A stretch of 27,681 nt of DNA, taken from NCBI GenBank assembly GCA_043753995.1, contig JAYUVP010000099.1:1-27681 (forward strand). Reading direction: 5' to 3'. Position 1 is the stretch's first letter, and the number at the start of each line of letters is the position of its first letter. The position numbers and the translations under genes were made by a program. Below, one piece after another: positions 9,113-23,491 of this stretch. This stretch comes from Fibrobacterota bacterium. GTDB lineage: Bacteria; Fibrobacterota; Fibrobacteria; UBA11236. Under the pieces are notes generated by a model. It ran no database searches, was not told where the DNA came from, and worked only from the letters and a program-made list of their open reading frames with translations.

Positions 9113-9117
9113 GGAAA

Positions 9118-9154: not shown

Positions 9155-9179
9155 CTAGACCGGACGACCCGGTACTCCT

Positions 9180-9280: not shown

Positions 9281-9318
9281 AAAAAGCAAAAGGCCGAAGG
9301 GTTTCCCCCTCGGCCTTG
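9281..9318 (-). terminator. Intrinsic terminator downstream of flagellin 9364..10218
   Basis: AAGGCCGAAGGG...CCCCTCGGCCTT hairpin with TTTTGCTTTTT tail on the minus strand. Confidence 0.75.
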
Positions 9319-9363
9319 CTGACGACACCGTGCCGAGCATCCCCGGCGGCGGCATCCTTTTTA

Positions 9364-11333: not shown

Positions 11334-13022
11334 TCATGGCGCAGCTTGTAGCAATTGGCCATTGACCCTTTGGCTTTCATAAGCCGCCCGTATCCATTCG
11401 GGGCTGCGCTTCACCCAATGCATGGCCACTTCATCCATGTCGCCGATAAAGTTGAAGGTGGTCTTCTGATTGCCATGCCTGCCCAGAGTGATATGCGAGG
11501 CTTGGTTATAGCCGATCTGGGTCGAAACCTTGGTTTCGATAACCTGTTTGCCATCGGCGAATATTGTCAGGTTGGAGCCGTCAAAAGTGACACCCACATG
11601 ATGCCAGGTCCCGTCTTTGAAATTCAAATCTGTCGAGGTCAAAGGATACCAGGCAACACTGCTGTCGGTGCGATTGACCGGGGGCCAAACAAAGGTGTGG
11701 AGCTGGCCATTGGGCATAAGGCGCAATCCGAAATTGTCTCCCATGCTTATGATTTCGCCGCCATTGGGACCCACCCCAGTGCAGCGAATCCAGGCTGTCA
11801 GGGTGAAAGCGCGGTCAGGCTTTTGTTTGGGCCGCAGGGTTGGGATTTCGATGTAATCACTATCGGCAAAAGATTTGCCATAGCCTATGACTCCCGCCCG
11901 GCCAGTATTCCGGATGAGATCATTGCCATCCGCATGCAAAGGCGTGGCGTCGCGATACAGGCCGACATGCGCGACACCTGGATTTTCTTCATTGAGATGC
12001 CAAACGCCTCCGTAGCCGTCGGCGGTGTCGAACACCGTTGGATACTTGGGTAAAGTCGCTTCGGGACGGCCATAATGGACAAAGAGGCTGTGGCCGGAAT
12101 GATTGGGTCGCAAGGTGTCGAGACGTACCCACAATACGCCAAGGCCAGCGACTGGGTCGAATTGTTCTATGGTAAAGGGCAAAACCTGCCCTTCGGAAGT
12201 CGTCACACGCAAGTCACCTCCGTCTGGGCGGGCGGACTTGAAATCAAAAGAGGGCGATGCCAAGCGTAGGGGTAGGCTAAAGCCGACCAGAGCTTGCTTC
12301 AAGCCCATGCCAGTGCTATCCGCCACGATTTTATAGCGTAAGGAATGGGACCAGGAGGAAAAGGCTCCGACTTGACCTTGGGTTGCCTTGGCTACTTGCA
12401 CGGATTCGGCCAGCAAGGTCCGCCTAATCGGTTGTCCAAGAACCTTGGAAGGAGCCGCCAAGTAAACCTTAGGCAATATGCCGGAGGGAATGCCGAAGAG
12501 AACGATGCGTCGCGCCTGGCGCGCCTCTTCGTTAATGGGTGCAAAAGCCGAAGTGCCGGGTGCATAGACATAGCTGCCGGTCTCAAAGGCGAGGCTGTCC
12601 TCTAATTGCACGGCTAAGGAGCCAGGGGAATGCAAAACCTCGGCGGCAAGTTTCATCTTGGACGCTCCCAGCTTCAGGGAGTGGAAAAGCGCGGATAGGC
12701 CTCGCAGACCGGAACGAGCTTCCAAACTCCAGGTTCCTTCGGGGAGAGAATCAAAGGCGAACCAGCCCTCGGCATCACTGACGGTTTTCTGATGGCGTGA
12801 TAAAACGGAATCGTGCGAGGCATCGTGTTCCGGATCATAGGCGGTCACCTGGGCCGAAGCGATGGGCTGGCCGCTTTCATCCAGCAGGCGTCCGAGTATG
12901 CGGGCATTGCCGGTTTCGGTGGCATCACCCCCGTCGGCTAGGTTGCCTGTGCTGCGATCGGAGAGGCAGCTCATGGCCATCAGAGATAGGACGGCAACGA
13001 GACCTTGAAGTAAGGATTTCAT
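11334..13022 (-). CDS. Lipoprotein with carboxypeptidase-regulatory-like, DUF2341 and LamG/concanavalin-like domains
   Basis: Lipobox AMSC followed by GGDATETGN. GRLLDESGQPIASAQV...DAEGWFAFDSLPEGTW (CarboxypepD_reg-like). FDFKSARPDGGDLRV...LWVRL (DUF2341). WHHVGVTFDG...FIGDMDEV (LamG). Start overlaps the upstream stop (ATGA). Confidence 0.8.
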   Translation of the reverse strand: MKSLLQGLVAVLSLMAMSCLSDRSTGNLADGGDATETGNARILGRLLDESGQPIASAQVTAYDPEHDASHDSVLSRHQKTVSDAEGWFAFDSLPEGTWSLEARSGLRGLSALFHSLKLGASKMKLAAEVLHSPGSLAVQLEDSLAFETGSYVYAPGTSAFAPINEEARQARRIVLFGIPSGILPKVYLAAPSKVLGQPIRRTLLAESVQVAKATQGQVGAFSSWSHSLRYKIVADSTGMGLKQALVGFSLPLRLASPSFDFKSARPDGGDLRVTTSEGQVLPFTIEQFDPVAGLGVLWVRLDTLRPNHSGHSLFVHYGRPEATLPKYPTVFDTADGYGGVWHLNEENPGVAHVGLYRDATPLHADGNDLIRNTGRAGVIGYGKSFADSDYIEIPTLRPKQKPDRAFTLTAWIRCTGVGPNGGEIISMGDNFGLRLMPNGQLHTFVWPPVNRTDSSVAWYPLTSTDLNFKDGTWHHVGVTFDGSNLTIFADGKQVIETKVSTQIGYNQASHITLGRHGNQKTTFNFIGDMDEVAMHWVKRSPEWIRAAYESQRVNGQLLQAAP

Positions 13023-13864
13023 GCCATCTCCTGCTTTTTCACCGGAGGCTGGCTTAAGGGGAAGAATTGAATATTGAGTTGCATCACGCGATCGGCATCA
13101 TCACTTAAGCGAGCAATTTCGAGTATTTCCTTGCGGAATTCCTGAATGCGCAATTTGATGCGTTCGGCATCCTTGGCTTGTATGCCTATGGTCATGGCGG
13201 AAATGTCGCGCTCTTCCTTGGGAAATCGATCGTAAACGTCTTCGGCTAGACGGGAAACTTCTCGGTGATAATTGGCCACATGCAAGGAGGCCACCTCATC
13301 TCCCGTGCTGACTATGGGTGCGGTTTGACTCCACGATCCATCTTCTTGCTTGGAGATGAGACCCAGCTTCAAAAGCATTTGCACCGAGGCCTTGGCATCC
13401 TTGGCCGGGATGGGGGGTATCAAGTTTTCGGCCAAGTAGGTATAATCTTCGCCCCAGGGGATTTTGGAAACCAAGGAGCGAATGGCCGGGTGATACCACT
13501 TGGTGTAATAGTCGTATTGCTCTTCCGTGAGGCGGGCGATTTTGAGTCGGCGCTTTTGCGCCAGCATGCGCTGAAAATGAATGTCCTTGGACGTTGCGGT
13601 GCGTGCCTGGGTAAAGGCCACCATGTTTTCAAAATATTCACGCTCGGTTTTACTGAGGCCAATCCCTTTGGCGATTTGATTGGCCGATTCGACGGTAAGA
13701 TTTTTGGTGCCACGCATCAGATGTAAAAGCCAAGCCGTGGAATTCATCCCGGTTTCGCGGGCAAAATCGCGATGGGTATAACCTGTCGTTTCCTTGCGAA
13801 TACGATAATAGTCGCGCAAAAAATCGCGATAATTGGTGTAGTCGAAAACCGCAATGAGAAGCAT
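13019..13864 (-). CDS. TIGR02147-family protein (HTH + DUF4423-like), putative DNA-binding regulator
   Basis: VFDYTNYRDFLRDYY, HTH-like THRDFARETGMNS...GTKNL, YYTKWYHPAIRSL, ERDISAMT, and QLNIQFFPLS. ATG at 13864 chosen for its AAAGG RBS; the ORF track starts at 13870. Confidence 0.88.
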   Translation of the reverse strand: MLLIAVFDYTNYRDFLRDYYRIRKETTGYTHRDFARETGMNSTAWLLHLMRGTKNLTVESANQIAKGIGLSKTEREYFENMVAFTQARTATSKDIHFQRMLAQKRRLKIARLTEEQYDYYTKWYHPAIRSLVSKIPWGEDYTYLAENLIPPIPAKDAKASVQMLLKLGLISKQEDGSWSQTAPIVSTGDEVASLHVANYHREVSRLAEDVYDRFPKEERDISAMTIGIQAKDAERIKLRIQEFRKEILEIARLSDDADRVMQLNIQFFPLSQPPVKKQEMA

Positions 13865-13887
13865 GGTCAACCTTTGAAGTGAAATCT

Positions 13888-13915
13888 AACATAGAGGTAA
13901 ACGGATGAAAGTCAA
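13888..13915 (-). promoter_or_regulatory. Putative sigma-70-type promoter for the TIGR02147-lipoprotein operon
   Basis: Minus strand TTGACT-N16-TATGTT. The -35 lies inside the inverted repeat AAAGTC-aatc-GACTTT (13908-13923). Confidence 0.45.
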
Positions 13916-14089
13916 TCGACTTTGGGTGAAAGCCTCATAATTCCTCTTTTTATCCCCAATGTGCTCAAAATGGCCTTGGGCTAGCCATCCCTTTCCTTTG
14001 CCTAACTTGCAGCTATCTCCTAGGACGGGTAAACGATTTTAAGGACCAAAAAAGGGCCATAAACTCCATATTCCGACTGCCTTTTAGAC

Positions 14090-14121
14090 AAAAAAAAGGG
14101 AAGAGAACTTTTTCTCTTCCC
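14090..14121 (-). terminator. Intrinsic terminator of the PEP-CTERM gene
   Basis: GGGAAGAGAA-cttt-TTCTCTTCCC, followed by an 8-T run on the minus strand. Confidence 0.8.
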
Positions 14122-14158
14122 GGATGGCCATCAGCGACGACGGAGTTTTGCGAAAAAA

Positions 14159-14740
14159 TTAAGCCAAGCGGCGACGCAGGCCAAAGGCAAAGGTCAGCAG
14201 TCCCAGCCCAAAGAGTGCCAAAGTACCGGGTTCGGGTACGGCGGCGGCGGTGGCGGGTCTTTCAACGATATAGCCTTCGATATTACCTAGGAGACCTTCG
14301 TCATTCCAATCCAGCGAAGCATTGCCATGACCTAAGCCCCAAATGGCCAGGTATTGTTCGCTGCCCGGGCCATAGTGGTCATTGGGCTCGGTCGGTGCCC
14401 AGTTGGTATAGGAGAAGGATTCTCCGCCCACCCAATGCCAATTGGCAGTAGCGTTTCGGGTGCCTTGATTTTGATAACCACCCAACCAATACTCCCCATA
14501 GCCACCGAAAGAGGTAATGAGGCCGGCGATGAAGTTTTGCTCGGCGGCGCTGGTGATGGTCGCCAAGCTCCATCCGGTTTCACCGGAAGTCTGGTAAGCG
14601 TCCGTCCAGGAGATACTCCGAGCGGTGATGATGTCATATTGGTGGTTATTGGCGGTATTGAGTATGGGTGCGGCATGAATGGCGCTAGCCAGCAAGGCGG
14701 CTAAGCCAAAGGTTTTTGTGAGGGTGATGGACGAAATCAT
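14159..14740 (-). CDS. PEP-CTERM sorting-domain protein with a C-type lectin domain
   Basis: Signal peptide. CTL motifs LATITSAAEQNFI, YWLGG, YTNWAPTEPND and WND. C-terminal VPEPGTLALFGLGL...RRR. Confidence 0.92.
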   Translation of the reverse strand: MISSITLTKTFGLAALLASAIHAAPILNTANNHQYDIITARSISWTDAYQTSGETGWSLATITSAAEQNFIAGLITSFGGYGEYWLGGYQNQGTRNATANWHWVGGESFSYTNWAPTEPNDHYGPGSEQYLAIWGLGHGNASLDWNDEGLLGNIEGYIVERPATAAAVPEPGTLALFGLGLLTFAFGLRRRLA

Positions 14741-14808
14741 AGGTTCTCCTGCGGGTCAATTCTCGGGGATAGGCCCGGTTTTTCCGCTGTTGTTTGCAGG
14801 AGATAATG

Positions 14809-14823
14809 GCAATAGGCATGCCT
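14809..14823 (-). promoter_or_regulatory. Sigma-54 (-24/-12) promoter
   Basis: Minus strand AGGCATGCCTATTGC (GG-N10-GC). Confidence 0.75.
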
Positions 14824-14897
14824 TGACGGCGATCAGAAAGTTTCTGGGTTTATAGGGGCAAATTTCCGGTGGTATTCGAGGCTCTGGAGAAGCTTGA

Positions 14898-14933
14898 AGT
14901 CGAAGCTTCACGCAATTGTCGAAGGGCTTTACA
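14898..14933 (-). promoter_or_regulatory. Enhancer-binding-protein sites (PrsR-type TGT-N11-ACA) plus a degenerate tandem copy
   Basis: Minus strand TGTAAAGCCCTTCGACA (14917-14933) and TGCGTGAAGCTTCGACT (14898-14914), about 75-110 bp upstream of the sigma-54 site. Confidence 0.7.
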
Positions 14934-15009
14934 AGAAGTTCGGGCTAAATGAGGACTTATTTCCCAAAATCCTCATTTCCCCGTTGACGCAAAACACGTT
15001 AAAAGGAAG

Positions 15010-16857
15010 TCAAATGCCTGCTTTCGCCTTGGCTTGATTGAGCAGGCTTTCGGCGGCCTGCAAATAAGCTTGGTTCTGGCGCGTCACATCGGCGTTACCC
15101 TGGGCATCAATCCATTCGACATAAAACCGGAATTTCGGTTCAGTTCCCGAGGCACGCAGCAAAAGCCAGCTGCCGTCTTCTAGAACCACTTTCAAGCCGT
15201 CCAAGGTGATGACTTGGGCCACGCGGCGGGGCTTGCCGTCGACGCTCAAGCTGGAGCCCGCAATGACTAGGCCCTCGGTCAAAGCTTTCATGACCTGACC
15301 TTTGAGTTTTTGCCAAGCTTCGACGCTAACGCCGGAAAGTTCGACACCGCCCTTGGCGGGATAAAACCGGCCATAATTTTTTTCGATGTCAGAGCGCAAT
15401 TCGCTGAGATTGCAGCCGGTTTCGGCCATGACTTGCAAGGCGGCCAAAAAACCAGCCAAGGCGCATTTCTCCAGGGTATGGCCCAAAAAGGAAATGCCAT
15501 CGCTTTCCTCAAAGGCCATCAGGGCCTTACCGCTGCCTAAGTAAGGCCGAAAATGCTTGAAGCCTACGGAGGTTTCAAAAACCGTTCGGCCTTGCTTGCG
15601 GGCTATGGCCGCGGCCAACCCCGAGCTGGGAACCGTGGTGGCCAAGCCGCCTGGCAAATCCTGATCGACAAAGTGGGCAAAGGCTATGGGCGCAAAGGCA
15701 TTCATGTCGATATCGGCTGCGGCATCGCCGAAGCGAATACGGTCGGCGTCGGGATCAAGAGCTACGGCGAGGGTCAGTGGCCGATGGGAGGCCTTGAGTT
15801 TGGCGATAAGGGGTTTTTGATTGGCGGCGCTGGGTTCGGGTTTCACACCATGAAAGGAATAGTCTTCATTCGTGTTAAGGCGGGCGAGGGCGCCGGCCTC
15901 TTCCAATTCAGCTATCAAGTCTTCACCTAATAAAGACTCGACATAACCTCGCGCCGATCCATGCATGAAGTCGATGGCAATGAGCAAATCATCCTTACGA
16001 CCGCGCAAAAAATCACGAATATGGGCGAGCTGAAAGACTTGCGACTTCTCCGCCACGAATTGGGTGAATAATGTTTTGCCATCCACGAGTTCACGAGCCG
16101 AGGCAGATGCGGCTGGCGCCGGTAAGAAAGCGGCACCTTGCATGAAGGCATTGGCGCCTTGCTCAATGCGCGAGGTCCATTCGACATCGGCGGGACCTCC
16201 GTCGGCTGGATTGAACTTGATGCCGGCATAATCCATGGGATTATGCGAAGGCGTGAAATTGATGGATCCGGCCACGCCAAGCAGACGCACCAGGGCCGAT
16301 CCCACCCCGGTAGGACACATGCCCGCGTCCAGCAATCGAAATCCTTGCGCAATCAATTCGTCGGCGGCGGCGGCGAGAAAGGCATCGCCTAAATACCGAT
16401 TGTCGCGGAAAATAAGCACCCCGGCTTTTTTCACTGCTTCGACATCGGCCAGGCTATTGGCTTTGGCATATTCGGCGGTGGCCATGACTTGGCCGATGGC
16501 CCTCACGGTTTTGCGCACATTGGTGACCGTGAAGCCTTCGCCTATGGCTTCGCGCCAACCCGAGGTACCGAAAACCACCAGGGTAGTGGCCGGGGAGGTT
16601 TGGGCCAAGCTGCCTTGAAATTCGCGGATGGCGGTAATGGCCGCGAAGGCGGCCTTGGCATCGCCGTCATTACGCCCCTCGCCATTGACCCAAGCTCCGA
16701 TGGCCTTGGCGGCCTCCCACAGTTGTGGCTCGCCGTTGGCCGGCTTGAGCCAGGAGTCCACGGTGGCGACCTGGGTCCCCATCTTCTTGGCAAGAGCAGA
16801 CCACAAAGGCGCAAAATCGACGGAGAGAAAACGCTGGCGGGTTTCAGTTAGACTCAT
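15010..16857 (-). CDS. Phosphoglucomutase/phosphomannomutase family protein
   Basis: FGTSGWR, TPSHNP (phosphoserine loop), DPDADR (metal loop), FEESDG and RASGTEP. The start is uncertain (16857 or 16917). Confidence 0.92.
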   Translation of the reverse strand: MSLTETRQRFLSVDFAPLWSALAKKMGTQVATVDSWLKPANGEPQLWEAAKAIGAWVNGEGRNDGDAKAAFAAITAIREFQGSLAQTSPATTLVVFGTSGWREAIGEGFTVTNVRKTVRAIGQVMATAEYAKANSLADVEAVKKAGVLIFRDNRYLGDAFLAAAADELIAQGFRLLDAGMCPTGVGSALVRLLGVAGSINFTPSHNPMDYAGIKFNPADGGPADVEWTSRIEQGANAFMQGAAFLPAPAASASARELVDGKTLFTQFVAEKSQVFQLAHIRDFLRGRKDDLLIAIDFMHGSARGYVESLLGEDLIAELEEAGALARLNTNEDYSFHGVKPEPSAANQKPLIAKLKASHRPLTLAVALDPDADRIRFGDAAADIDMNAFAPIAFAHFVDQDLPGGLATTVPSSGLAAAIARKQGRTVFETSVGFKHFRPYLGSGKALMAFEESDGISFLGHTLEKCALAGFLAALQVMAETGCNLSELRSDIEKNYGRFYPAKGGVELSGVSVEAWQKLKGQVMKALTEGLVIAGSSLSVDGKPRRVAQVITLDGLKVVLEDGSWLLLRASGTEPKFRFYVEWIDAQGNADVTRQNQAYLQAAESLLNQAKAKAGI

Positions 16858-17015
16858 GCCCGCCAAAGTAGGAAGTCCGAGGATTTTACCGGGCCTAGAG
16901 CCGCGCTCAAACCTCATTTGCCGCGCCCTGGCTGCCTTTTTCCACCCACACTAGCCCGGATCGCGATAGATTGAGCCGAGATTGAGTTCCATTCAGCAGG
17001 CTTAAGGAGTGGGTA

Positions 17016-18473
17016 ATGTCCAAGGTTTACCGGCGATTGCCGATGGCGAGATTCCTGCGCTTCGCGTCGTGCTTTTCACTCATGGGTTGGGCCACCCAAG
17101 CCGGGCCAGTCGAGGATTTAGGGACTTGGCTTAAACTCGATCGGGCATCACGTCCGGACATTCAGACCCAATCCTTCGCTGGAGCGGCATTGACCGCCTC
17201 CGAATGCGAGGCCGCCCGCGCGCTGATTTTGGCCGAGCGCAAGGCCTATGTCCAAAGCGCCTGGAGCACGCAATGGACGGGCAAGCGCTTGGTCTTCGGT
17301 ACTTTGCAAATGCCTTTCGACTATCGCGTGCGCGGAGTCAAGCCGGCGGGGGGATATGACCTTTACATCTCCATGCATGGCGGGGGCGAGGCGGCGGCTT
17401 CGGTCAATGATCAGCAATGGCAAAATCAAATCTCCTTGTATCAGCCGCCGGGAGTATATCTCGCGCCGCGCGCTCCCACCGATTCCTGGAATATGTGGCA
17501 TCGCGATCACATCGACGCCTTCTTCGATCGCCTTATTCATTTGGCGGTGGCCATGCAAGACGTGAATCCGAACCGGGTCTATGTCATGGGCTATTCTGCC
17601 GGAGGCGATGGAGCCTATCAATTAGTGCCTCGCATGGCCGATCGATGGGCAGCTGGCGCCATGATGGCGGGCTACCCGAACAATGCTTCTCCCGTCAACT
17701 TGCGTAACATAGGCATGACCTTGCATGTCGGTGGCCTGGACGCATCCTATGACCGGAATACCCTTGTGGTGAATTTCGGAAAGCAAATCCAAAAGCTGCA
17801 AGACGCCGACCCTGGTTTTTACAAGTATCAGGTGAAGGTATATCCCGACAAGCCGCATTGGATGGATTTGCTCGATGCCGAGGCCTTGCCCTGGATGGCT
17901 GCTTTTACCCGGCAGCCTCATCCTAAGAAAGTGGTCTGGCAGCAGGATACCGCGGTGGGATCGCCGATTTCCTTAACGGATCCCAAGGTCAAGGAACCGC
18001 CCACGCAATGGCGCTTCTATTGGCTGGGCCGTCCTGACCGCAAAATTGCACCGCGACAGGCCATGTTAACCGCTGAGATACGCGGTCAAGAAGTGCGTAT
18101 TGAAAAGAGCAATCTCGATTCCGTGGAGATTGGGTTGAACGATTCCCTGCTCGACCTATCTCTTCCGGTATCCGTTTTCTGGAAAGGCAATAAAGTCTTT
18201 GAAGGCTTACTTGCGCGAACCGCGGGAGCCTTGTTTCAGAGCTGCGATTTGCGTGGCGATCGCGATATGATTTATCCCGTGCGGGTGGTCGTGAGCGCCC
18301 AGGGGTTGGTATCGGTGGGGATTGTAAGTCGCATCCCCCGCTTGGGCAATACACCGAAATCGAGGGCATTTTTTTCGCCCTCATCGAATGGCACCGTACC
18401 CTTATTTGAGGAGTCAGAACCTGACTCCTGGCTTGATCTTCGCGGGAGAAAACAAATCCGGAATTTTCCCTAA
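17016..18473 (+). CDS. Secreted alpha/beta hydrolase (esterase/peptidase-like) with a Fibrobacterota-type C-terminal tail
   Basis: AAGGAG RBS and signal-like N-terminus. LYISMHGGG, GYSAGG nucleophile elbow, GGLD and KPHWM. C-terminal WLDLRGRK. Confidence 0.75.
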   Translation: MSKVYRRLPMARFLRFASCFSLMGWATQAGPVEDLGTWLKLDRASRPDIQTQSFAGAALTASECEAARALILAERKAYVQSAWSTQWTGKRLVFGTLQMPFDYRVRGVKPAGGYDLYISMHGGGEAAASVNDQQWQNQISLYQPPGVYLAPRAPTDSWNMWHRDHIDAFFDRLIHLAVAMQDVNPNRVYVMGYSAGGDGAYQLVPRMADRWAAGAMMAGYPNNASPVNLRNIGMTLHVGGLDASYDRNTLVVNFGKQIQKLQDADPGFYKYQVKVYPDKPHWMDLLDAEALPWMAAFTRQPHPKKVVWQQDTAVGSPISLTDPKVKEPPTQWRFYWLGRPDRKIAPRQAMLTAEIRGQEVRIEKSNLDSVEIGLNDSLLDLSLPVSVFWKGNKVFEGLLARTAGALFQSCDLRGDRDMIYPVRVVVSAQGLVSVGIVSRIPRLGNTPKSRAFFSPSSNGTVPLFEESEPDSWLDLRGRKQIRNFP

Positions 18474-18490
18474 ATCGGTTTTCGCGACTC

Positions 18491-18523
18491 AAAAAGGTGT
18501 GCATCCTGAATGCAATGCACACC
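18491..18523 (-). terminator. Terminator between convergent genes
   Basis: GGTGTGCAT...ATGCACACC inverted repeat with a 5-T tail on the minus strand. Confidence 0.65.
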
Positions 18524-18533
18524 GTGATAAATA

Positions 18534-20846
18534 TTACAATCCGGCAGCCACGGAAACCGTGCCTTTGATCAAATCGCCCTTCATGCCGCGAAAGAGGTAG
18601 AGGTAAACGGGAGCCTTGAGGCCATCGGCTTTGGGCTGAGACCATTTGCCTTGGGCTGCATCATAGCTCGTCTGGAAGGCCAATTGACCATTGGGTTCAA
18701 ACAGGGAAAGCACACCGGAACCCAATTGCTGATTATTGTGAAGGGTGAAACCTTGACCTTGCACCAAGAATTTCAGGTCGCTGCGGGGTTGAGCCAGATT
18801 TGGCCGAATTAATTTCGTAGGAGGAAGAATATTCGGGCTGCAGGGTTTGGTTGCAGCCGAGGTAAGGGTCGATGCGGTAAAGGCTGTGGTGGCATAAGCG
18901 TCAACGTTCGCATAGTTCGACCAAATTGCAGTAGCATTGGCAGGCTTACTGGTGATTTCCGACCAAGCCACCAAGCCTTGCAAACGAACATGGCCATGAG
19001 GGTCATTGACCGAGCAGGCATCGCTAATGGCCTGAGCGCTGGCTGCCGTACGGGGCATGGCTTTGAGCGCGTTTTCACGTACGCACCAGGCGGGGTGAAT
19101 GAGCAAGCCCTTCAAGAGGGGATCCCACTTGGTTGGGTTACCCGACGCTTCGAACTGCCCCAATCCCTGTAAGGTCCAAATCGCATGGGTTACGGCGGGG
19201 TCATTGCCCACAGCATCGACGTAGCGACTGTTGGTCAAAATGTTTTCGAGCAGGGTCCCCAATTCGGCGGAAAAACCCTTGGCGATCAGCATCCTTTGGG
19301 CGGTCAAACGCCATAGGAAATTGGGATTGCTCAAAGTGGCGACAAGTTGCGCCACCGTGGCCGTGGTCAAATTAAGAATGGGTTCGCGCGTGTCATTCTC
19401 AGGCGTAACCCGGTAAATACGATAGCTGTTTTTCACGCGTAGCTTATTTTTCCAAGCACCGCTAATCTTGTCATCAGGGCCAGCAGGATTGTGTAAAAAG
19501 AGGTAGTTGTTCCAATCCAATACCCAAACCGCGCCATCGGGACCGGTTTTGGCCAATATTGGGGCAACCCAAGCATCCGTTGAGGCAATGAGATTTGAAT
19601 GTTCAGGACCGGGCATACGCACTGCTTTCCAGGTGCTGCCGATTAGGGTGTCCTTGGTGGTGACGACTAGACTGTCTTGATTGCAAAGTTTACTCGCGCC
19701 TTCGCAAGAGAAAGCAAATCGATTCCAGTATTTTGGCGGGAAGAGCCGCGAAGTATAAAATTGTAGCCCGGAAACAGCTGTCGTTTTCGACATCCAAATA
19801 TTATTTGTTTTTTTCGACGTGCCTTCCCATAAATAGCGATCACCCGTGATGGGGTAGAATTTATCCTTATTGTTTGTGCTTGTAGGATCAATTCGAATAT
19901 CAATGGAAGGTTGGCCACGACGAAGTGAATGATTGATATGAGGCGAGGTGGTGGCACCCGATTGGAAGATTTGCCCATCTTCCATTTGGCCAATACCCCA
20001 GGCATTGTAAGGTCCTGAACTTGTGAATTGTTGAAAGGTTTTGGTGCCATTTCCAATGGAGGGGTGTTTAAAGCGCCAAACCTTGCCTTGGCTACAATTA
20101 ATCCCCTCCACGGTGCAACTATTATAGCCTGTATGCCCATAAACCCAATTGTCGAGGCCATACATAAGGCTACTGATACTGCCATGGGTATCATGATTGC
20201 CATTGCCGCCTCCCATACCTGAAAACAAAATTTGGGGCTCGCCAGCGACATCATTGTTGTTTGGGAAAAAAACCACATAGGGTACCATGGTCACCACCAC
20301 GCCACCCGTCACCACCTCAATGCTCTGCGGTAAATTGAGACCGTCCTTGAAAACGGTCACCTTGTCCATGATGCGATCGCCGTCGGTGTCTTCCAAAATC
20401 AAAATACGGTCCTGACCTCCAACGAATTTTTGATCCGTTATGCTATTCGATGCGGCACGAATAATACTTGGATAGCTGCGCGGTTCAACCAACCACATGC
20501 GGCCGCGCTCATCAAATGAAAAATGCATGGGATAGGCAATGCCGCCGGTGCTTTTCTCCGTAGCCCAAACTTCGGCCTTTAGGCCAAGAGGAGTTTGAAT
20601 GCAATGGATGGATTGTTCCGGCGTGATTTGTTTTTGAATAGTTCCGGTGGGATAAGTTGAAGGAGGTTGGGGGACATCACCATCATTTCGTCCACCGAAT
20701 TGACTCCAATTATCGGCAGGATCTGCCTGCTCCCGCAACGCGGTCAAATCAGGACATGTGCCTCCTCGATTGACCAGCGGCGTCGCTGAATATCCATAGG
20801 TCCAGCTTAAGCCTAGGACGAGGGCGATTTCGGACTGGAATTTCAT
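18534..20846 (-). CDS. Secreted PVC-type 'membrane-bound dehydrogenase'-like beta-propeller + HEAT-repeat protein with a T9SS-like C-terminal domain
   Basis: FDERGRMWLVE, DRILILEDTDGD, YGLDNWVYG, TGPDGAVWVLDW and LSNPNFLWRLTAQRML are typical of the TIGR02604-like N-terminal region. HEAT-like repeats follow. No CxxCH is seen. Confidence 0.7.
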   Translation of the reverse strand: MKFQSEIALVLGLSWTYGYSATPLVNRGGTCPDLTALREQADPADNWSQFGGRNDGDVPQPPSTYPTGTIQKQITPEQSIHCIQTPLGLKAEVWATEKSTGGIAYPMHFSFDERGRMWLVEPRSYPSIIRAASNSITDQKFVGGQDRILILEDTDGDRIMDKVTVFKDGLNLPQSIEVVTGGVVVTMVPYVVFFPNNNDVAGEPQILFSGMGGGNGNHDTHGSISSLMYGLDNWVYGHTGYNSCTVEGINCSQGKVWRFKHPSIGNGTKTFQQFTSSGPYNAWGIGQMEDGQIFQSGATTSPHINHSLRRGQPSIDIRIDPTSTNNKDKFYPITGDRYLWEGTSKKTNNIWMSKTTAVSGLQFYTSRLFPPKYWNRFAFSCEGASKLCNQDSLVVTTKDTLIGSTWKAVRMPGPEHSNLIASTDAWVAPILAKTGPDGAVWVLDWNNYLFLHNPAGPDDKISGAWKNKLRVKNSYRIYRVTPENDTREPILNLTTATVAQLVATLSNPNFLWRLTAQRMLIAKGFSAELGTLLENILTNSRYVDAVGNDPAVTHAIWTLQGLGQFEASGNPTKWDPLLKGLLIHPAWCVRENALKAMPRTAASAQAISDACSVNDPHGHVRLQGLVAWSEITSKPANATAIWSNYANVDAYATTAFTASTLTSAATKPCSPNILPPTKLIRPNLAQPRSDLKFLVQGQGFTLHNNQQLGSGVLSLFEPNGQLAFQTSYDAAQGKWSQPKADGLKAPVYLYLFRGMKGDLIKGTVSVAAGL

Positions 20847-20894
20847 GCTTTTCCCCTATTCCATTCGGTTTACTGCACATAGGGTAACTGAGAA

Positions 20895-21048
20895 GGTGGG
20901 GACAAAACTGGACCATAATGCGATTTAGGTTGGATTTTGTGTCCTCACCTGTCCAACTAAAAAACAGTCTTTAAACTGGAATAAAGGGAAATATTCCCGG
21001 TAAGGCTTAAAAACGGGACTAAAAATAATGGAATCTTTGTCCTCACTT
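20895..21048. promoter_or_regulatory. Repeated operator-like motif ARGTGRGGACAMA (3 copies) in a divergent promoter region
   Basis: AGGTGGGGACAAA (+, 20895-20907), TGTGTCCTCACCT (20938-20950, inverted) and TTTGTCCTCACTT (21036-21048, inverted). Confidence 0.6.
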
Positions 21049-21098
21049 GGTTCGAATTGCCTATGCGAGAAGTGACCTCTCCGTTTATACTTCTAGCT

Positions 21099-22076
21099 AT
21101 GCAAACCGAATTGCCTGGCGACTCGGATGCCCAAGTCAAGAAGGGCAAGGCGCCGCGCATTCTGCAATACTTGGACTATCGCGATTTTCTTCGCGATTAC
21201 TGCGAGTATCGCAAGTCTATGGACCCGCGTTTTTCGCAACGGGCCTTCGCCAGGGAAGCCGGATTGCCGCCGAGTTGTTCCAGTCTGCTTCCCAGTGTGA
21301 TAAAGGGGCGGCGTAACTTGAGCGCCAATCTCCGCATCAAATTCGCAAAGGCCGTGGGTCTTTCCGAGCGTGATTTCCGCTATCTGGATTTGCTGGTGCA
21401 ATTCAATCAGGCCAAGGGCATGATTGAGAAAAATCATTATTTCGCCCAGCTGGCGAAATTCCGCAGTTCACGCGCGCGAATTGTGGGTGAAGGGCAATAC
21501 CGATATTACAGCAAATGGTATTACTCGGCGGTATGGACTTATTTTAGCATTGATCAAAATCAAAGGCATCCCGCCATCATCGCCTCGCGCATTTTCCCTA
21601 GCCTTAGTGTACCCCAGGTGGAAGAAAGCATTCGACTTTTGCTGACCCTCGGGCTCATCCGAAAAACCGCTTCAGGTTATTCGACCACGGATAAGCATTT
21701 GTATACAGAAAAAGACTTGCGGGCTTTAGCTACCAGGCAGCATTTGCATGAAATGAATGACACAGCCATGCAAGTCTTGGAGTCGGTGCCGACCGATCGC
21801 CGCCAATACAATGCCCTTATGTTTTCCGTATCCGACGCGGGATTTCAGGCGGTAAAGGATCGAATACGGTCATTCCAGGAGGAGTTGCGTGAGATTGTGG
21901 ATGGCGATAGCCGCGAAGACCGTATTTACTCCTTAACCATGCAACTTTTCCCGAATAGCCAATGGGAAGGAGAGCCGGGCCAAGGCATTATATTAGCGAA
22001 GTCCCCAGGTGAAAGTGGTGCAAGCGTCAAGCCGAAATCCCCAAGCAAGAGAATCCTTCCCGGTGGGAACAAGTGA
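21099..22076 (+). CDS. TIGR02147-family protein (HTH + DUF4423-like), putative DNA-binding regulator
   Basis: ILQYLDYRDFLRDY, FSQRAFAREAGL...KGRRNLS, YYSKWYYSAV, and YSLTMQLFP. The start is uncertain (21057, 21063 or 21099); TATACT lies 7 nt before ATG 21099. Confidence 0.88.
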   Translation: MQTELPGDSDAQVKKGKAPRILQYLDYRDFLRDYCEYRKSMDPRFSQRAFAREAGLPPSCSSLLPSVIKGRRNLSANLRIKFAKAVGLSERDFRYLDLLVQFNQAKGMIEKNHYFAQLAKFRSSRARIVGEGQYRYYSKWYYSAVWTYFSIDQNQRHPAIIASRIFPSLSVPQVEESIRLLLTLGLIRKTASGYSTTDKHLYTEKDLRALATRQHLHEMNDTAMQVLESVPTDRRQYNALMFSVSDAGFQAVKDRIRSFQEELREIVDGDSREDRIYSLTMQLFPNSQWEGEPGQGIILAKSPGESGASVKPKSPSKRILPGGNK

Positions 22077-23491
22077 GCCTTTCTTTCTTCTCGCTTCGGT
22101 TCTTTCCAATGCCTTTTGCTTGCCAACCCATTCGATTAAGTCTCGACATTCTGGCTTTATCGGTGAGCCTTCTGCTTGGCTGCTCTGGAAATACCACGGG
22201 CGTAGATAATCCTGGTTTAAGCGAATTGCCCGTGAGTTTTCATGATTCGAACGACGAATTGGCCTTGGTTCAGGGAGATTTGGAGATATACGGCCAAGAG
22301 CAAAACCCGGCTATTCATCCCGAGCCACTTATCAGGATTCCGGTTCAGAATGCCATTGAGACCAAAATTACAGCCAATGACTTTCAGCACATCGAAACCG
22401 AAATAGTTCGCTCCAAGCTTGGCTCTAGTAATATAAGCGACCTTTTCCAGTCGGCGTATTTCAACCCAGCCTATTATTCAAGCGACAGTCTCTTGCGATT
22501 CAATGTTTTATTTCGTGATTCCTCCAATTCCGGCGATTTGGTTTTCGGATTGATTTATGATGCGATTCACAAAACATTTCGTTTTGAAAATGGCCCTCGC
22601 CAGACGCAATTGAAAATTCAACTTAAATCGATGGTAGCCTATACCGCTCCCTTAACCCGAGACGAAAGCCTGGGGGAATTGGGTCGGGTATATATTCCGG
22701 GATCGCCATTTCAAGCCACGGTTGTGGATAGTCAATTCACCTTTCCTAGCTTGCCGATAGGTCAATTCCCTTTGCGTTTTCTGAATGGGAGAGGCCAGAT
22801 TTTCGCCGTTCGCGAACCTATGAATACCCAACAGGCCCGACTATTCACCATGGCCCCGAAACTTGTCGCGCAAATCGATAGTTCGTTTTTGGCCATTGCT
22901 TATTCGGTTCAGGCAGGAGAAGATCGAAGTCTTTCTGTTTTCGATACCGCCTCTTTTTGGGGGTTTTTGTCGGGAGTGCAATCCAGTGATGCACGTCTTT
23001 CGGTGCGTTGGCGATGTCTTACCAAGGCAGCGGGAAAATCCATTTGGATTGAAAATCCAACGGGTTTGAATTCTCGCTTCCATTTTCAAAATACGGGAAC
23101 GTATAGGATGGAATTGGCGGTCACCCTTGCCGCCCAAACACGCCAGGATACCTTAGCGATTGAGGTGAATGTGGCTTCCAATGACAATGCGCAAAAATTC
23201 ATTTTCCCTCAGCCCGGTGGAATCATGACCATGGGGCAGGAAGGCACGGTTCAATGGGAGTCCTCGGTTGAGGGGCTGGTTCGCCTGGAATATTCTCTGG
23301 CGGAGAATAATTTCAGTACCTGGAAAACCCTCCAGGACAGCGTTTCCATCCTCAAAGGTTGGCCATCCTATGCCTGGACGCCGCCGGTTTTAGGCACGGA
23401 TTCCCTGAATGTCATGCTTCGAGTGATGACCATTCCCATGGATTCAATACTCGTGCAAACTGCGGAGCCCTTTATTTTGGCGCCTCCCTGA
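22073..23491 (+). CDS. Lipoprotein with a PKD/Ig-like domain
   Basis: Lipobox LLGC followed by SGNTTGVDNP. VYIPGS...LPIG segment. VQAGEDRSL...GTYRMELAV (PKD-like). GTG start overlaps the upstream stop (GTGA); alternative ATG at 22109. Confidence 0.75.
   Translation: MSLSFFSLRFFPMPFACQPIRLSLDILALSVSLLLGCSGNTTGVDNPGLSELPVSFHDSNDELALVQGDLEIYGQEQNPAIHPEPLIRIPVQNAIETKITANDFQHIETEIVRSKLGSSNISDLFQSAYFNPAYYSSDSLLRFNVLFRDSSNSGDLVFGLIYDAIHKTFRFENGPRQTQLKIQLKSMVAYTAPLTRDESLGELGRVYIPGSPFQATVVDSQFTFPSLPIGQFPLRFLNGRGQIFAVREPMNTQQARLFTMAPKLVAQIDSSFLAIAYSVQAGEDRSLSVFDTASFWGFLSGVQSSDARLSVRWRCLTKAAGKSIWIENPTGLNSRFHFQNTGTYRMELAVTLAAQTRQDTLAIEVNVASNDNAQKFIFPQPGGIMTMGQEGTVQWESSVEGLVRLEYSLAENNFSTWKTLQDSVSILKGWPSYAWTPPVLGTDSLNVMLRVMTIPMDSILVQTAEPFILAPP

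What the first reader, a model, noticed from the sequence alone, without database searches (positions are those of the whole stretch)
11334..23491. Two coupled 'TIGR02147 regulator + lipoprotein' modules: candidate uncharacterised envelope-linked regulatory system
Seen in the sequence: a TIGR02147-like HTH gene occurs twice, and each time a lipoprotein gene follows with a 4-bp overlap (ATGA at 13019-13022, GTGA at 22073-22076). Both lipoproteins have a short Gly/Thr/acidic-Asn motif just after the lipid-anchored Cys (GGDATETGN; GNTTGVDN). They also share an internal segment, VYAPGTS...IPSG vs VYIPGSP...LPIG, and then diverge into different C-terminal domains (DUF2341+LamG vs PKD-like). Known: TIGR02147 is a large paralogous family of Fibrobacter with no established function. 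Inference: a modular pair in which a conserved lipoprotein N-region and a variable sensing or binding C-domain are dedicated to a cognate DNA-binding protein, possibly controlling neighbouring secreted proteins.
Basis: partly seen in the sequence, partly recalled or inferred. Interest (0 to 1): 0.78.

Follow-up and report, generated by a model that had tools for sequence, protein, structure and literature searches.

The report
Coupled regulator and lipoprotein gene pairs
The window holds two copies of a widespread but unstudied two-gene unit, in which a DNA-binding protein gene is followed by a gene for a lipid-anchored envelope protein with a short signature sequence seen only in such pairs, so it may link the cell envelope to gene control in a new way.

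Summary
Both HTH genes are full-length TIGR02147/DUF4423 proteins. Each is followed by an overlapping gene for a signal-peptide-plus-Cys protein.

I examined 90 complete TIGR02147 genes in 80 public loci plus the window. Of these, 84 are followed on the same strand by such a gene, 5 are not, and 1 lies at a contig end. After the Cys, the partners carry a linear motif, [AG]-G-x(0-3)-[ST]-E-T-[GT]-N-[PA].

A strict form of this motif occurs in 47 of 84 partners. It occurs in 1 of 739 other genes, and that one sits at a contig end. The partner type changes across phyla, from LamG lectin-like to LRR, propeller, CHB_HEX_C and serpin, yet the pairing and motif persist.

The two window lipoproteins share a homologous N-terminal region (hhalign probability 96.4%). 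No third gene is conserved. No paper in the library describes the pairing.

The best reading is an autoregulated two-gene operon: an XRE-HTH plus winged-helix regulator with a modular envelope binding protein. What reads the motif is open. Direct recognition by the regulator has only weak model support. The "PKD-like" label for lipoprotein 2 is not confirmed.

The parts
13019..13870 (-). Regulator 1 (REG1). TIGR02147/DUF4423 protein with an XRE-type HTH followed by a winged-helix-like domain. The ORF runs from TTG 13870, and ATG 13864 is the likelier start.
   Evidence: TIGR02147 294.5 bits. DUF4423 116.6 bits and HTH_31 24.8 bits. AlphaFold model pLDDT 73. Fold matches to HigA/C.Esp1396I HTH and to MarR-like/4g6q winged helix.
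11334..13022 (-). Lipoprotein 1 (LIPO1), 562 aa. Order of parts: signal peptide, Cys19, disordered tether with motif, two beta-sandwiches, DUF2341, ConA-like/LamG domain.
   Evidence: Pfam CarboxypepD_reg 42-104, DUF2341 267-323, Laminin_G_3 387-544. Model pLDDT 85.6 with residues 20-37 below 50. Fold matches to ConA-like lectin jelly rolls.
13019..13022 (-). ATGA, a 4-base overlap of the REG1 stop with the LIPO1 start. AGGAGA lies 5 nt upstream.
   Evidence: Sequence. A start codon at -4 occurs in 45 of 84 module pairs against 48 of 398 other same-strand neighbour pairs.
12966..13022 (-). LIPO1 signal peptide ending in Cys19 (LMAMSC).
   Evidence: Lipobox regex positive. Cys19 is invariant in 24 of 24 aligned partners.
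12906..12932 (-). LIPO1 tether motif GGDATETGN (residues 31-39).
   Evidence: Alignment. Motif HMM 14.1 bits. E36 is nearly invariant. The region is disordered in the model.
12480..12575 (-). LIPO1 YVYAPGTS...IPSG segment (residues 150-181), the first strands of the second beta-sandwich.
   Evidence: G156 and P179 are invariant. Segment HMM 44.5 bits. Strand 151-153 in the model.
13888..13915 (-). Sigma-70-like promoter TTGACT-16-TATGTT in front of REG1, with a GTTTACC word in the spacer.
   Evidence: where the number of such sites in the region is no higher than in shuffles. The aligned orthologous upstream regions show TTGACA-like and TATCTT boxes and TTGTTTACC.
14098..14121 (-). Terminator-like hairpin plus T-run after the upstream PEP-CTERM gene. 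It marks the 5' boundary of module 1.
   Evidence: 10-pair stem and T8; I3.
21057..22076 (+). Regulator 2 (REG2). TIGR02147/DUF4423 protein. The family match begins at residue 34, so the true start is probably ATG 21063 or 21099.
   Evidence: TIGR02147 223 bits. DUF4423 107.2 bits. Sister to the regulators of the CHB_HEX_C-type partners, SH-aLRT 99.
22073..23491 (+). Lipoprotein 2 (LIPO2), 472 aa from GTG 22073, or 460 aa from ATG 22109. Its N-terminal half is homologous to other partners. Its C-terminal half has no family match.
   Evidence: No Pfam family.
22073..22076 (+). GTGA, a possible 4-base overlap of the REG2 stop with the LIPO2 start.
   Evidence: The start is supported by the P0277 alignment. 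The source record uses ATG 22109.
22184..22213 (+). LIPO2 post-Cys motif SGNTTGVDNP (residues 38-47), a variant of the tether motif.
   Evidence: G39, N46 and P47 are invariant and C37 nearly invariant in 10 aligned relatives. It aligns with the TETGN motif in hhalign. The motif HMM did not detect it.
22685..22771 (+). LIPO2 VYIPGSP...LPIGQFP segment (residues 205-233).
   Evidence: Segment HMM 9.6 bits, E 0.083. G210, F222, P228 and G230 are invariant. Aligned with YVYIPGT.
20931..21049 (+). Two 21-nt direct repeats, TGGAnTyTTTGTCCTCACyTG (20931-20951 and 21029-21049), upstream of REG2. An inverted copy lies at 20896-20906. This is a candidate operator specific to this window.
   Evidence: TTGTCCYCAC occurs twice in the window against 0.07 expected. 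It is absent upstream of the related regulators.

Best explanation
Each module is a two-gene operon found widely in Fibrobacterota. It also occurs in Bdellovibrionota and Myxococcota, and in other MAGs whose record titles name other groups.

The first gene encodes a cytoplasmic DNA-binding protein of about 280 aa, with an XRE-type HTH followed by a winged-helix DUF4423 domain. It most likely binds its own promoter and sets transcription of the operon.

The second gene is usually translationally coupled through a 4-base stop/start overlap. It encodes an exported, Cys-anchored lipoprotein. That protein has a disordered tether carrying the motif [AG]-G-x(0-3)-[ST]-E-T-[GT]-N-[PA], then one or two transthyretin-like beta-sandwich spacers, then an exchangeable C-terminal ligand-binding domain. 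In module 1 that domain is a ConA/LamG lectin-like domain. In module 2 it is an unassigned beta-rich domain.

The cassette duplicates as a unit and swaps its C-terminal domain, giving each cell many regulator-plus-binder pairs. The tether motif is the family's functional handle. I think it is most likely read in the envelope as a sorting, docking or processing signal.

Shown here: family membership, the pairing, the overlap enrichment, the motif and its restriction to these operons, the domain modularity, and the predicted folds. Inferred: DNA binding and autoregulation, lipidation and location, ligand binding, and what reads the motif.
For: Pairing. Of 90 complete TIGR02147 genes, 84 have a same-strand partner directly downstream, 73 found by motif HMM and 11 more on inspection. 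Five have none and 1 cannot be assessed. The pairing holds for all 10 regulators in the 9 loci whose record titles are not Fibrobacterota (L013, L014, L016, L043, L063 with two, L068, L069, L073, L076).

Motif specificity. The motif HMM was run against all 4157 ORFs of at least 70 aa. Every hit of 7 bits or more lies directly downstream of a TIGR02147 gene, apart from one tandem second copy in the same operon. The strict core occurs in 47 of 84 partners against 1 of 739 other genes, and that one is at a contig end.

Selection level. Codons at the motif vary synonymously, so selection acts on the peptide.

Coupling. A start codon at -4 occurs in 45 of 84 module pairs against 48 of 398 controls, odds ratio 8.4.

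Modularity. Among 82 partners, 24 have Laminin_G_3 (25 have DUF2341), 4 LRR, 5 NHL, 2 Kelch, 2 Reg_prop, 5 CHB_HEX_C_1, 2 serpin and 1 beta-helix, and 13 have no family. CarboxypepD_reg is listed in 53 of 82.

Homology of the two window lipoproteins. The N-terminal regions align at hhalign probability 96.4%.

Regulator fold. XRE HTH plus MarR-like winged helix.

Tether. It is disordered, with pLDDT below 50 at residues 20-37 in a model of mean 85.6.

Transcription signals. A promoter-like site and an upstream terminator frame module 1. TTGTTTAC words are enriched upstream of regulators, 13 of 90 against 14 of 837.

Co-divergence. Partner type clusters on the regulator tree.
Against: Nothing here is experimental. 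DNA binding, autoregulation, lipidation and location are all inferred.

They include orthologous groups and several loci per MAG, so the counts and P values are not independent samples.

Gene calls are my own ORF rules. Eleven partners were accepted by eye. The motif HMM was trained on partners, so its sensitivity is circular, although its specificity is not.

Many lipoboxes are atypical at position -1 (H, N, R, K, Q, E). One relative of LIPO2 (P0280) has no Cys.

Five regulators lack a partner. The promoter and terminator scans are not above shuffles for the region. No shared operator was found across the family.

If the motif were an ordinary envelope sorting signal, it should also appear on lipoproteins outside these operons. 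It does not, and the sorting reading does not explain that.
Confidence: 0.65

Rival explanations
1. Export-coupled self-sensing. The regulator binds the tether motif of its own lipoprotein before the protein is exported, helped by translation from the same mRNA. Alternatively it binds a peptide released from the lipoprotein and re-imported. Either way, transcription would track the export, maturation or turnover of the lipoprotein without any membrane-spanning transducer.
For: The motif is the only feature besides signal peptide and Cys that all partner types share, serpins and short proteins included. It is confined to TIGR02147 operons. The 4-base overlaps are enriched. The motif lies in a disordered tether, as expected of a linear recognition motif.

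Complex prediction was run on REG1 (24-row alignment) with LIPO1 residues 19-60, and its verdict was weak support. The score was 0.49 (runs 0.47, 0.49, 0.55) and the best of 3 controls was 0.00. In calibration, the mark was reached by 116 of 157 solved complexes and 2 of 215 mismatched pairs. At 0.60 or under, however, it was reached by only 18 of those 157 and by both mismatches that passed. The runs agree in at least 52% of contacts, and the partner pLDDT was 41-43. The tool states that such a pass is more often wrong than right unless the guess was likely beforehand.
Against: The mature lipoprotein and the regulator sit in different compartments. The motif is similar among paralogs in one genome, for example the SETTN types, which would invite cross-talk. 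The regulator's C-terminal domain is a winged helix, not a known peptide-binding fold. No oligopeptide importer or protease is conserved nearby. The model gave no interface, and the partner's fold confidence is low.
Confidence: 0.22
2. RRNPP-like peptide signalling. The pair would be a Gram-negative analogue of Rap-Phr, PlcR-PapR or PrgX, in which an XRE-HTH receptor senses a secreted peptide encoded by the overlapping downstream gene. The properties of those systems given here are recalled, not taken from a call.
For: The gene order is an XRE-type HTH regulator followed by an overlapping gene for an exported product carrying a short conserved peptide.
Against: The fold search gave no support for a TPR-type receptor. 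PrgX ranked 27th at probability 0.13 and TM about 0.15, whereas the C-terminal half matches winged-helix proteins. The partners are proteins of 200-740 aa with binding domains, not small pro-peptides. The motif is conserved across paralogs, rather than diversified as a specificity-carrying signal would be.
Confidence: 0.05
3. Plain adjacency. The lipoprotein is simply the regulator's co-inherited neighbour, and the motif is a neutral relic of common descent with no function tied to the regulator.
For: Most partners are homologous to one another: 54 fall in one BLAST cluster. Co-duplication alone would give the clustering seen on the tree.
Against: The motif survives where the rest of the protein has been replaced, as in the serpin, LRR, propeller and short proteins, and across phyla. 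Meanwhile synonymous sites vary freely. The pairing holds in 84 of 89 assessable cases.
Confidence: 0.06
4. Mobile-element or defence module, such as a phage-type repressor with a superinfection-exclusion lipoprotein, or an HTH antitoxin with a toxin.
For: The N-terminal HTH resembles HigA antitoxins and R-M control proteins in fold. There is a weak PADLOC 'control protein' hit at 17.4 bits, E 0.00096.
Against: No PADLOC or PHROGs family matches either lipoprotein, beyond LamG-type similarity to phage fibre proteins, and no PHROGs family matches the regulators. No phage or mobile genes recur nearby. Several chromosomal paralogs occur per genome, in syntenic housekeeping contexts.
Confidence: 0.02

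Closest known systems
TIGR02147 (NCBIfam 'Fsuc_second') / Pfam DUF4423 family of uncharacterised proteins
   Same: Both regulators are full-length members. The family is very large, with 19838 clusters at 50% identity at E<=0.001 and 14336 at E<=1e-10.
   Different: The family is defined by the regulator alone. The obligate downstream lipoprotein and its tether motif are not part of any model I could find. NCBIfam gave no family above cut-off for 30 partners. No paper in the library mentions the pairing.
Bacteroidota lipoprotein export signal (LES), Lauber et al. 2016, PMC5080379 (abstract read)
   Same: Both are short linear motifs containing an acidic residue, placed in the N-terminal tether after the lipidated Cys of lipoproteins, and both occur in the FCB group of phyla. 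The LES directs surface exposure.
   Different: The LES is K-(D/E)2 or Q-A-(D/E)2 close to the Cys, and it occurs on many surface lipoproteins whatever their neighbours. This motif is G-G-x-x-T-E-T-G-N, lies 1 to about 15 residues from the Cys, and was seen only in TIGR02147 operons.
RRNPP regulators with cognate secreted peptides (Rap-Phr, PlcR-PapR, PrgX with lipoprotein-derived pheromones). The properties given here are recalled, not taken from a call.
   Same: A cytoplasmic XRE-HTH regulator gene is followed, often with overlap, by a gene for an exported product that feeds back on the regulator.
   Different: There is no TPR domain. The partner is a large lipoprotein. The conserved peptide lies after the Cys, not in the signal peptide or at a pro-peptide C-terminus. 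The organisms are diderm.
Polysaccharide-utilisation-type loci of Bacteroidota: a local regulator with surface glycan-binding lipoproteins (recalled)
   Same: Paralogous expansion of local-regulator-plus-surface-binding-lipoprotein units. Partners carry lectin-like or carbohydrate-binding-type domains (LamG, CHB_HEX_C, beta-helix).
   Different: No SusC-type TonB-dependent transporter, SusD, hybrid two-component or ECF sigma/anti-sigma gene is conserved nearby. The regulator type is different.
Outer-membrane lipoprotein sensors NlpE-Cpx and RcsF-Rcs (recalled)
   Same: A lipoprotein is tied to a transcriptional response to the state of the envelope.
   Different: Those systems signal through inner-membrane histidine kinases. 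No membrane transducer is conserved in these cassettes.

Membership tests
TIGR02147 family (NCBIfam) | Whole-protein score above the curated cut-off (50 bits) with full-length coverage of the 272-position model. | tested here: met
   REG1 scores 294.5 bits over model positions 3-271. REG2 scores 223 bits over positions 3-272.
DUF4423 (Pfam PF14394) | Score above the gathering cut-off of 30 bits. | tested here: met
   116.6 and 107.2 bits.
XRE-type helix-turn-helix DNA-binding proteins | HTH domain recognised by sequence or fold, and DNA binding. | tested here: inconclusive
   HTH_31 scores 24.8 bits, below its cut-off of 27, and only in REG1. The fold matches HigA and C.Esp1396I at probability 0.92-0.98, but the Foldseek E-values are above 0.1. 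DNA binding cannot be tested here.
Bacterial lipoproteins (signal peptidase II substrates) | N-terminal signal peptide ending in a lipobox with an invariant Cys, and lipid modification. | tested here: met
   A PROSITE-like lipobox regex is positive for both, at Cys19 and Cys37. The Cys is invariant in 24 of 24 sequences and nearly invariant in 10. Lipidation itself cannot be tested. Many relatives have atypical residues at -1.
CarboxypepD_reg (PF13620) transthyretin-like beta-sandwich | Score above the gathering cut-off of 32.3 bits. | tested here: met
   LIPO1 scores 37.5 bits at residues 42-104. LIPO2 has no hit by sequence, and its N-terminal half aligns with the LIPO1 family only by profile.
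DUF2341 + Laminin_G_3 (ConA-like lectin) architecture | Both domains above their cut-offs (23.4 and 27.6 bits). | tested here: met
   LIPO1 scores 31.1 and 75.5 bits. The fold matches ConA-like jelly rolls. Sugar binding was not tested.
   No PKD hit even at E<=10, only Ig_CFAP65_7th at 12.5 bits, E 0.13. The best PDB sequence match has E 0.083.
RRNPP quorum-sensing regulators | An HTH followed by a TPR-like peptide-binding domain, with a small secreted pro-peptide partner. | tested here: not met
   The C-terminal half matches winged-helix proteins. PrgX has probability 0.13. The partners are 200-740 aa.
Bacteroidota LES-bearing surface lipoproteins | K-(D/E)2 or Q-A-(D/E)2 next to the lipidated Cys (abstract of PMC5080379). 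| tested here: not met
   The post-Cys sequences LSDRSTGNLADGGDATETGN and SGNTTGVDNP have no such run.

The most novel reading that the evidence does not exclude
TIGR02147 proteins are receptors for the tether motif of their own translationally coupled lipoprotein. This would be a one-component, export- or maturation-coupled switch in which a cytoplasmic XRE/winged-helix regulator reads a GTETGN-type linear motif. The motif could be read on the not-yet-exported precursor or on a released fragment. The cell would then adjust transcription of each surface binder to its delivery or turnover without any membrane transducer. Because the regulator family spans about 20,000 clusters at 50% identity, this would be a large, unrecognised class of envelope-to-DNA signalling.
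Probability: 0.22. Interest if true: 0.85.

Novelty: new variant of a known kind. Interest (0 to 1): 0.7.

Why it matters
TIGR02147/DUF4423 is one of the large protein families with no assigned function. It has 19838 clusters at 50% identity, and only one passing table entry in the searched literature.

This work gives the family a concrete, testable genetic context: an almost obligate partner and a diagnostic peptide motif. It also turns dozens of "hypothetical lipoproteins" per Fibrobacterota genome into one modular family of envelope binders. Each has its own regulator and an exchangeable ligand-binding head (lectin-like, LRR, propeller, chitobiase-C, serpin).

That bears on how fibre-degrading Fibrobacterota and predatory or social Bdellovibrionota and Myxococcota recognise surfaces and polymers. 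If the regulator reads the motif directly, the pair would be a new signalling principle.

Tried and rejected
1. DNA or RNA element hypothesis for the motif. Rejected, because codons at the core vary synonymously: GAA 30 and GAG 19, AAC 26 and AAT 19, and Ser encoded by both TCN and AGC. This was seen in the 49 of 84 partners that match the strict core.

2. Pairwise BLASTP of the two lipoproteins. Not significant (E 0.056). I replaced it with profile methods.

3. A conserved third gene, such as a transducer, importer or protease. None found. The commonest family at any neighbouring position, other than the partners, occurs 5 times or fewer.

4. Fused or longer forms of the regulator. None among 5144 candidates of 497-2000 aa, which the tool itself describes as weak evidence.

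5. RRNPP-like fold. No support. A PDB sequence search with the regulator profile found nothing below E 0.2.

6. A named family for the partners. No NCBIfam model was above cut-off for 30 partners. The best was a sub-threshold hit to TIGR04134 at 22.5 bits, cut-off 39.8.

7. Defence or phage libraries. Nothing relevant.

8. A shared operator. The TTGTTTAC enrichment comes mainly from the REG1 group. The repeat upstream of REG2 is not found upstream of related regulators.

9. The 'PKD-like' label for LIPO2. Not supported.

10. My first greedy gene calls scored 12 regulators as having an opposite-strand neighbour. Seven of these were artefacts of antisense ORFs and were corrected by the motif HMM, and two more on inspection.

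11. In the tree labelling, one partner was mislabelled: the L056 partner is Kelch but was marked 'other'. This does not change the conclusion.

Full report
**What is in the window**

The 27.7-kb window looks like a Fibrobacterota genome. The closest relatives of regulator 1 are named Fibrobacteres or Fibrobacteria MAG proteins, at 52-74% identity.

Its genes, in order, are listed below.

| Coordinates | Strand | Gene |
|---|---|---|
| 104-2176 | - | PabB-like synthase |
| 2248-3099 | + | PAP2 phosphatase |
| 3115-5841 | - | GAF-PAS-GGDEF-EAL protein |
| 6001-10218 | - | four tandem flagellin genes |
| 10444-11211 | - | unassigned secreted-looking protein |
| 11334-13022 | - | lipoprotein 1 (LIPO1) |
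| 13019-13870 | - | regulator 1 (REG1) |
| 14159-14740 | - | PEP-CTERM C-type-lectin protein |
| 15010-16917 | - | phosphohexomutase |
| 17016-18473 | + | esterase-like protein |
| 18534-20846 | - | DUF7133 / PVC-type haem protein |
| 21057-22076 | + | regulator 2 (REG2) |
| 22073-23491 | + | lipoprotein 2 (LIPO2) |
| 23359-24015 | + | GNAT acetyltransferase ORF |
| 24490-26892 | - | CstA |

**Checking the observation**

- **Regulators.** Both are full-length TIGR02147 proteins, scoring 294.5 and 223 bits against a cut-off of 50. Both carry DUF4423, at 116.6 and 107.2 bits. They are 30% identical to each other.
- **Module 1 junction.** It reads AGGAGA-N5-ATGA, with the regulator's TGA inside the lipoprotein's ATG-A.
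- **Module 2 junction.** It reads GTGA. The window's own record in the protein collection is 460 aa, which implies a start at ATG 22109. However, a 50%-identical homolog begins 'MSLFRL', aligned with the GTG-start N-terminus. The overlap is therefore plausible but not certain.
- **LIPO1.** It has a signal peptide ending in Cys19, then GGDATETGN at residues 31-39.
- **LIPO2.** It has LLLGC37 followed directly by SGNTTGVDNP.
- **Homology of the two lipoproteins.** BLASTP finds nothing significant between them (E 0.056). Profiles built from their relatives do align, over signal peptide, Cys, motif, an '..NP' segment and the YVYIPGT...P.G segment. The hhalign probability is 96.4% and E is 1.2e-9.
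- **C-terminal domains.** DUF2341 and Laminin_G_3 are confirmed for LIPO1. 'PKD-like' for LIPO2 is not confirmed.

**Is it more than chance?**

I aligned REG1 and REG2 with six relatives of REG1 and scanned one genome per species. Of these, 498 were confirmed, and the best 80 loci were kept with 10-kb flanks.

About 11 of the 80 are REG1 orthologs at 51-58% identity. The rest are paralogs at 31-41% identity. They come from Fibrobacteria, Chitinivibrionales and Fibrobacter. They also come from MAGs titled Polyangiaceae, Persicimonas, Pseudobdellovibrionaceae, Nitrospirales, Pseudomonadota and 'delta proteobacterium'.

Using my own ORF rules and an HMM of the regulators, I found 95 TIGR02147 ORFs. 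Ninety of them were complete and scored at least 150 bits.

The downstream proteins align well from the Cys onwards. The pattern is C, then 0-12 residues, then [AG]-G-x(0-3)-[ST]-E-T-[GT]-N-[PA].

I built an HMM of this stretch and searched all 4157 ORFs of at least 70 aa in the 1.17 Mb. Every hit of 7 bits or more was an ORF directly downstream of a TIGR02147 gene, with one exception. That exception is a second, tandemly duplicated copy within the same operon (L044).

The tally for the 90 regulators:

| Outcome | Number |
|---|---|
| Partner found by motif HMM | 73 |
| Signal peptide, Cys and a recognisable variant found on inspection (LIPO2 is one of these) | 11 |
| No partner (L020, L039, L062, L071, L079) | 5 |
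| Not assessable (111 nt from a contig end) | 1 |

A transparent regular expression gives the same picture:

| Motif form | Partners (of 84) | Other genes (of 739) |
|---|---|---|
| Strict core [ST]E[TAVIQ][GTQ][ND] within 28 residues of a signal-peptide Cys | 47 | 1 |
| Looser form | 61 | 2 |

The single strict background case, L028_7246_8901, lies 41 nt from a contig end, so its upstream gene cannot be seen.

A start codon overlapping the upstream stop by 4 bases is present in 45 of 84 module pairs. In other same-strand neighbour pairs it is present in 48 of 398, giving an odds ratio of 8.4.

These samples are phylogenetically related, so the P values overstate independence. Even so, the pairing holds for all 10 regulators in the 9 loci whose titles are not Fibrobacterota.

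**Anatomy of the partners**

Pfam results for 82 partners:

| Domain | Partners |
|---|---|
| CarboxypepD_reg-type beta-sandwich after the motif (E<=0.001, often below the gathering score) | 53 |
| Laminin_G_3 (DUF2341 in 25) | 24 |
| NHL / propeller | 5 |
| CHB_HEX_C_1 + Fn3_assoc | 5 |
| LRR | 4 |
| Kelch | 2 |
| Reg_prop | 2 |
| Serpin (Polyangiaceae) | 2 |
| Beta-helix | 1 |
| Big_5 | 1 |
| DUF4382 | 1 |
| No family | 13 |

It recurs in partners that were not used to build its HMM. Among these are the five CHB_HEX_C partners, which are the closest relatives of module 2 and score 14-23 bits.

The AlphaFold model of LIPO1 is confident, with mean pLDDT 85.6. Residues 20-37, covering the tether and most of the motif, are an exception and fall below 50. 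The C-terminal part matches ConA-like lectin jelly rolls found in sialidases, a GH43 arabinanase, a Bacteroides carbohydrate-binding protein and the receptor-binding domains of clostridial neurotoxins. This is a resemblance of fold only, with TM about 0.3 normalised to the query.

Codons at the motif vary synonymously, so selection acts on the peptide and not on a DNA or RNA element.

**The regulator**

The model has mean pLDDT 73, from 8 sequences. It shows an N-terminal helical HTH and then a helix-helix-hairpin unit at residues 143-182.

Foldseek finds nothing at E<=0.001. The N-terminal part aligns with XRE-type HTH proteins such as HigA, GraA and C.Esp1396I, at probability 0.92-0.98. The rest aligns with winged-helix proteins: 4g6q at probability 0.99 and TM 0.51, and MarR-family proteins.

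PrgX appears only at rank 27, with probability 0.13. No longer, fused forms of the regulator were found.

The family is very large: 19838 representatives at 50% identity at E<=0.001.

**Context**

No gene family recurs beside the pair.

- Module 1 orthologs keep a local synteny of regulator, lipoprotein, one or two variable genes and then flagellins.
- Relatives of module 2 sit back-to-back with a second module (L048, L050, L054, L059, L078).
- On a tree of 84 regulators, partner architecture is clustered. It needs 21 changes, against a shuffled mean of 39.3, and 0 of 200 shuffles were as low. That is still far more than the minimum of 7, so the C-terminal head is swapped often.
- REG2 is sister to the CHB_HEX_C clade (SH-aLRT 99), yet its partner has a different C-terminus. 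One label in that analysis was mis-transcribed: the Kelch partner of L056 was marked 'other'.
- A sigma-70-like promoter (13915-13888) lies in front of module 1, and a strong terminator-like hairpin (14121-14098) lies upstream of it. The scan as a whole is not above shuffles.
- REG1 orthologs share TTGACA-like and TATCTT boxes and a TTGTTTACC word. TGTTTAC occurs upstream of 13 of 90 regulators, against 14 of 837 other genes.

**How it most likely works**

Shown:

- A conserved two-gene cassette.
- Overlap-type coupling between the two genes.
- A disordered tether motif restricted to these operons.
- A conserved N-terminal scaffold with an exchangeable C-terminal head.
- A regulator with two DNA-binding-type folds.

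Inferred:

- The regulator binds its own promoter and controls a bicistronic mRNA.
- The partner is exported, lipidated and displayed in the envelope, where its head binds a polymer or surface ligand.
- The cassette multiplies by duplication and head exchange.

The open step is what reads the motif. My leading reading, at about 0.45, is that it is read in the envelope as a sorting, docking or processing signal. That fits its position in the tether and the precedent of the Bacteroidota LES (abstract of PMC5080379). It does not explain why no other lipoprotein-like gene in the sampled flanks carries the motif.

The alternative is that the regulator itself reads the motif on the precursor or on a fragment. 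That would explain both the exclusivity and the translational coupling.

One complex prediction tested this, using REG1 with LIPO1 residues 19-60, both supplied as alignments. The verdict was weak support:

- The score was 0.49, and the best of 3 controls was 0.00.
- In calibration, the mark was reached by 116 of 157 solved complexes and 2 of 215 mismatches.
- At 0.60 or under, it was reached by only 18 of those 157 and by both mismatches that passed.
- The runs agree in at least 52% of contacts, and the partner pLDDT was 41-43.

The tool states that such a pass is more often wrong than right unless the guess was likely beforehand. I put this alternative reading at about 0.22.

**Comparison with what is known, and novelty**

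The regulators are members of TIGR02147/DUF4423, and the family itself is known but uncharacterised. I found nothing in print on the pairing or the motif:

- A search for TIGR02147 or DUF4423 returned one paper. It only lists a DUF4423 protein, Bd3700, in a proteomics table. I read that passage only.
- A search for CHP02147, IPR011873, PF14394, Fsuc_second or IPR025537 returned nothing.
- Searches for the motif strings returned only irrelevant hits.

The library does not cover most subscription journals. The TIGRFAMs/InterPro free-text description of TIGR02147 could not be read here, so a remark on neighbours there cannot be excluded.

The system resembles RRNPP cassettes in gene order, LES-bearing lipoproteins in motif placement, and PUL-type regulator-plus-binder units in logic. 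It fails the defining features of each of these (see the membership tests). I rate it a new variant of a known kind, namely a local regulator with a co-transcribed envelope protein. If the regulator reads the tether, it would be categorically new.

**Limits**

- The loci are the top 80 of at least 498 and are not independent.
- The gene calls and signal-peptide/lipobox rules are simple and my own.
- Eleven partners were accepted by eye.
- There are no experiments.
- The C-terminal fold of LIPO2 stayed unchecked.

Noticed in passing
window 6001-10218 (-); also L001 17186-20356, L005 4447-8679, L008 6722-7576: Four tandem flagellin genes of 283-284 aa lie just downstream of module 1. Flagellin genes also follow the module in orthologous loci. 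From recall, cultured Fibrobacter are described as non-flagellated, so this lineage of Fibrobacterota appears to be motile.
   Followed up: partly
window 10444-11211 (-): An unassigned 255-aa protein with a signal-peptide-like N-terminus sits between LIPO1 and the flagellins. It has no Pfam, NCBIfam, PADLOC or PHROGs match. It did not cluster with the gene at the same position in orthologous loci.
   Followed up: partly
window 14159-14740 (-) and 14098-14121 (-): A small PEP-CTERM protein with a C-type lectin domain lies upstream of module 1. It is followed by a strong hairpin plus T8 terminator-like site. The PEP-CTERM tag implies an exosortase system in this genome.
   Followed up: no
window 20896-21049: Three copies of a TTTGTCC(T/C)CAC word lie upstream of REG2, two direct (inside 21-nt repeats 98 nt apart) and one inverted. 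The 10-mer occurs twice in the window against 0.07 expected. It is not found upstream of related regulators in other genomes.
   Followed up: yes
L001, L002, L006, L009 and L011 upstream of the regulator; window 13888-13915: REG1 orthologs share TTGACA-like and TATCTT promoter boxes, followed by TTGTTTACC(AAA). L009 also carries a perfect palindrome, GTTTACCATGGTAAAC, further upstream. These are candidate operators.
   Followed up: partly
partners in L012, L023, L027, L033, L034, L037, L049, L056, L058, L065, L066, L074: Many partner signal peptides end in a Cys preceded by H, N, K, R, Q or E at position -1. These residues are atypical for the classical lipobox. Either the lipobox rules of these phyla are relaxed or some partners are processed differently.
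   Followed up: no
L043 10828-12405 and L068 10672-12399: In two Polyangiaceae MAGs the partner of the TIGR02147 gene is a full-length serpin (Pfam 327.7 and 293 bits). It has a lipoprotein-type signal peptide and the GTETDNP motif.
   Followed up: partly
L044 10828-13931: After the regulator there is a tandem duplication of a two-gene unit. Each unit is a motif lipoprotein followed by a protein of about 280 aa. The two ~280-aa proteins are 44% identical to each other and share a near-identical C-terminal ~80 residues.
   Followed up: partly
L035, L048, L050, L054, L059, L078: Two regulator-lipoprotein modules sit back-to-back, divergently transcribed and 0.4-1.3 kb apart. The arrangement is conserved across five MAGs for the relatives of window module 2.
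   Followed up: partly
L072 9983-12425: The regulator matches the family profile only to position 221, and its ORF overlaps the partner ORF by 239 nt. This suggests a frameshift or assembly error.
   Followed up: no
window 23359-24015 (+): The GNAT acetyltransferase ORF overlaps the 3' end of LIPO2 by 133 nt if read from its first start codon. The family match begins at residue 77, so the real start is probably downstream of the LIPO2 stop.
   Followed up: no
L035 6666-8831 (-): One partner ends in a fibro-slime domain (TIGR02148, 62 bits against a cut-off of 45). This links the module to another Fibrobacter-expanded domain family.
   Followed up: no
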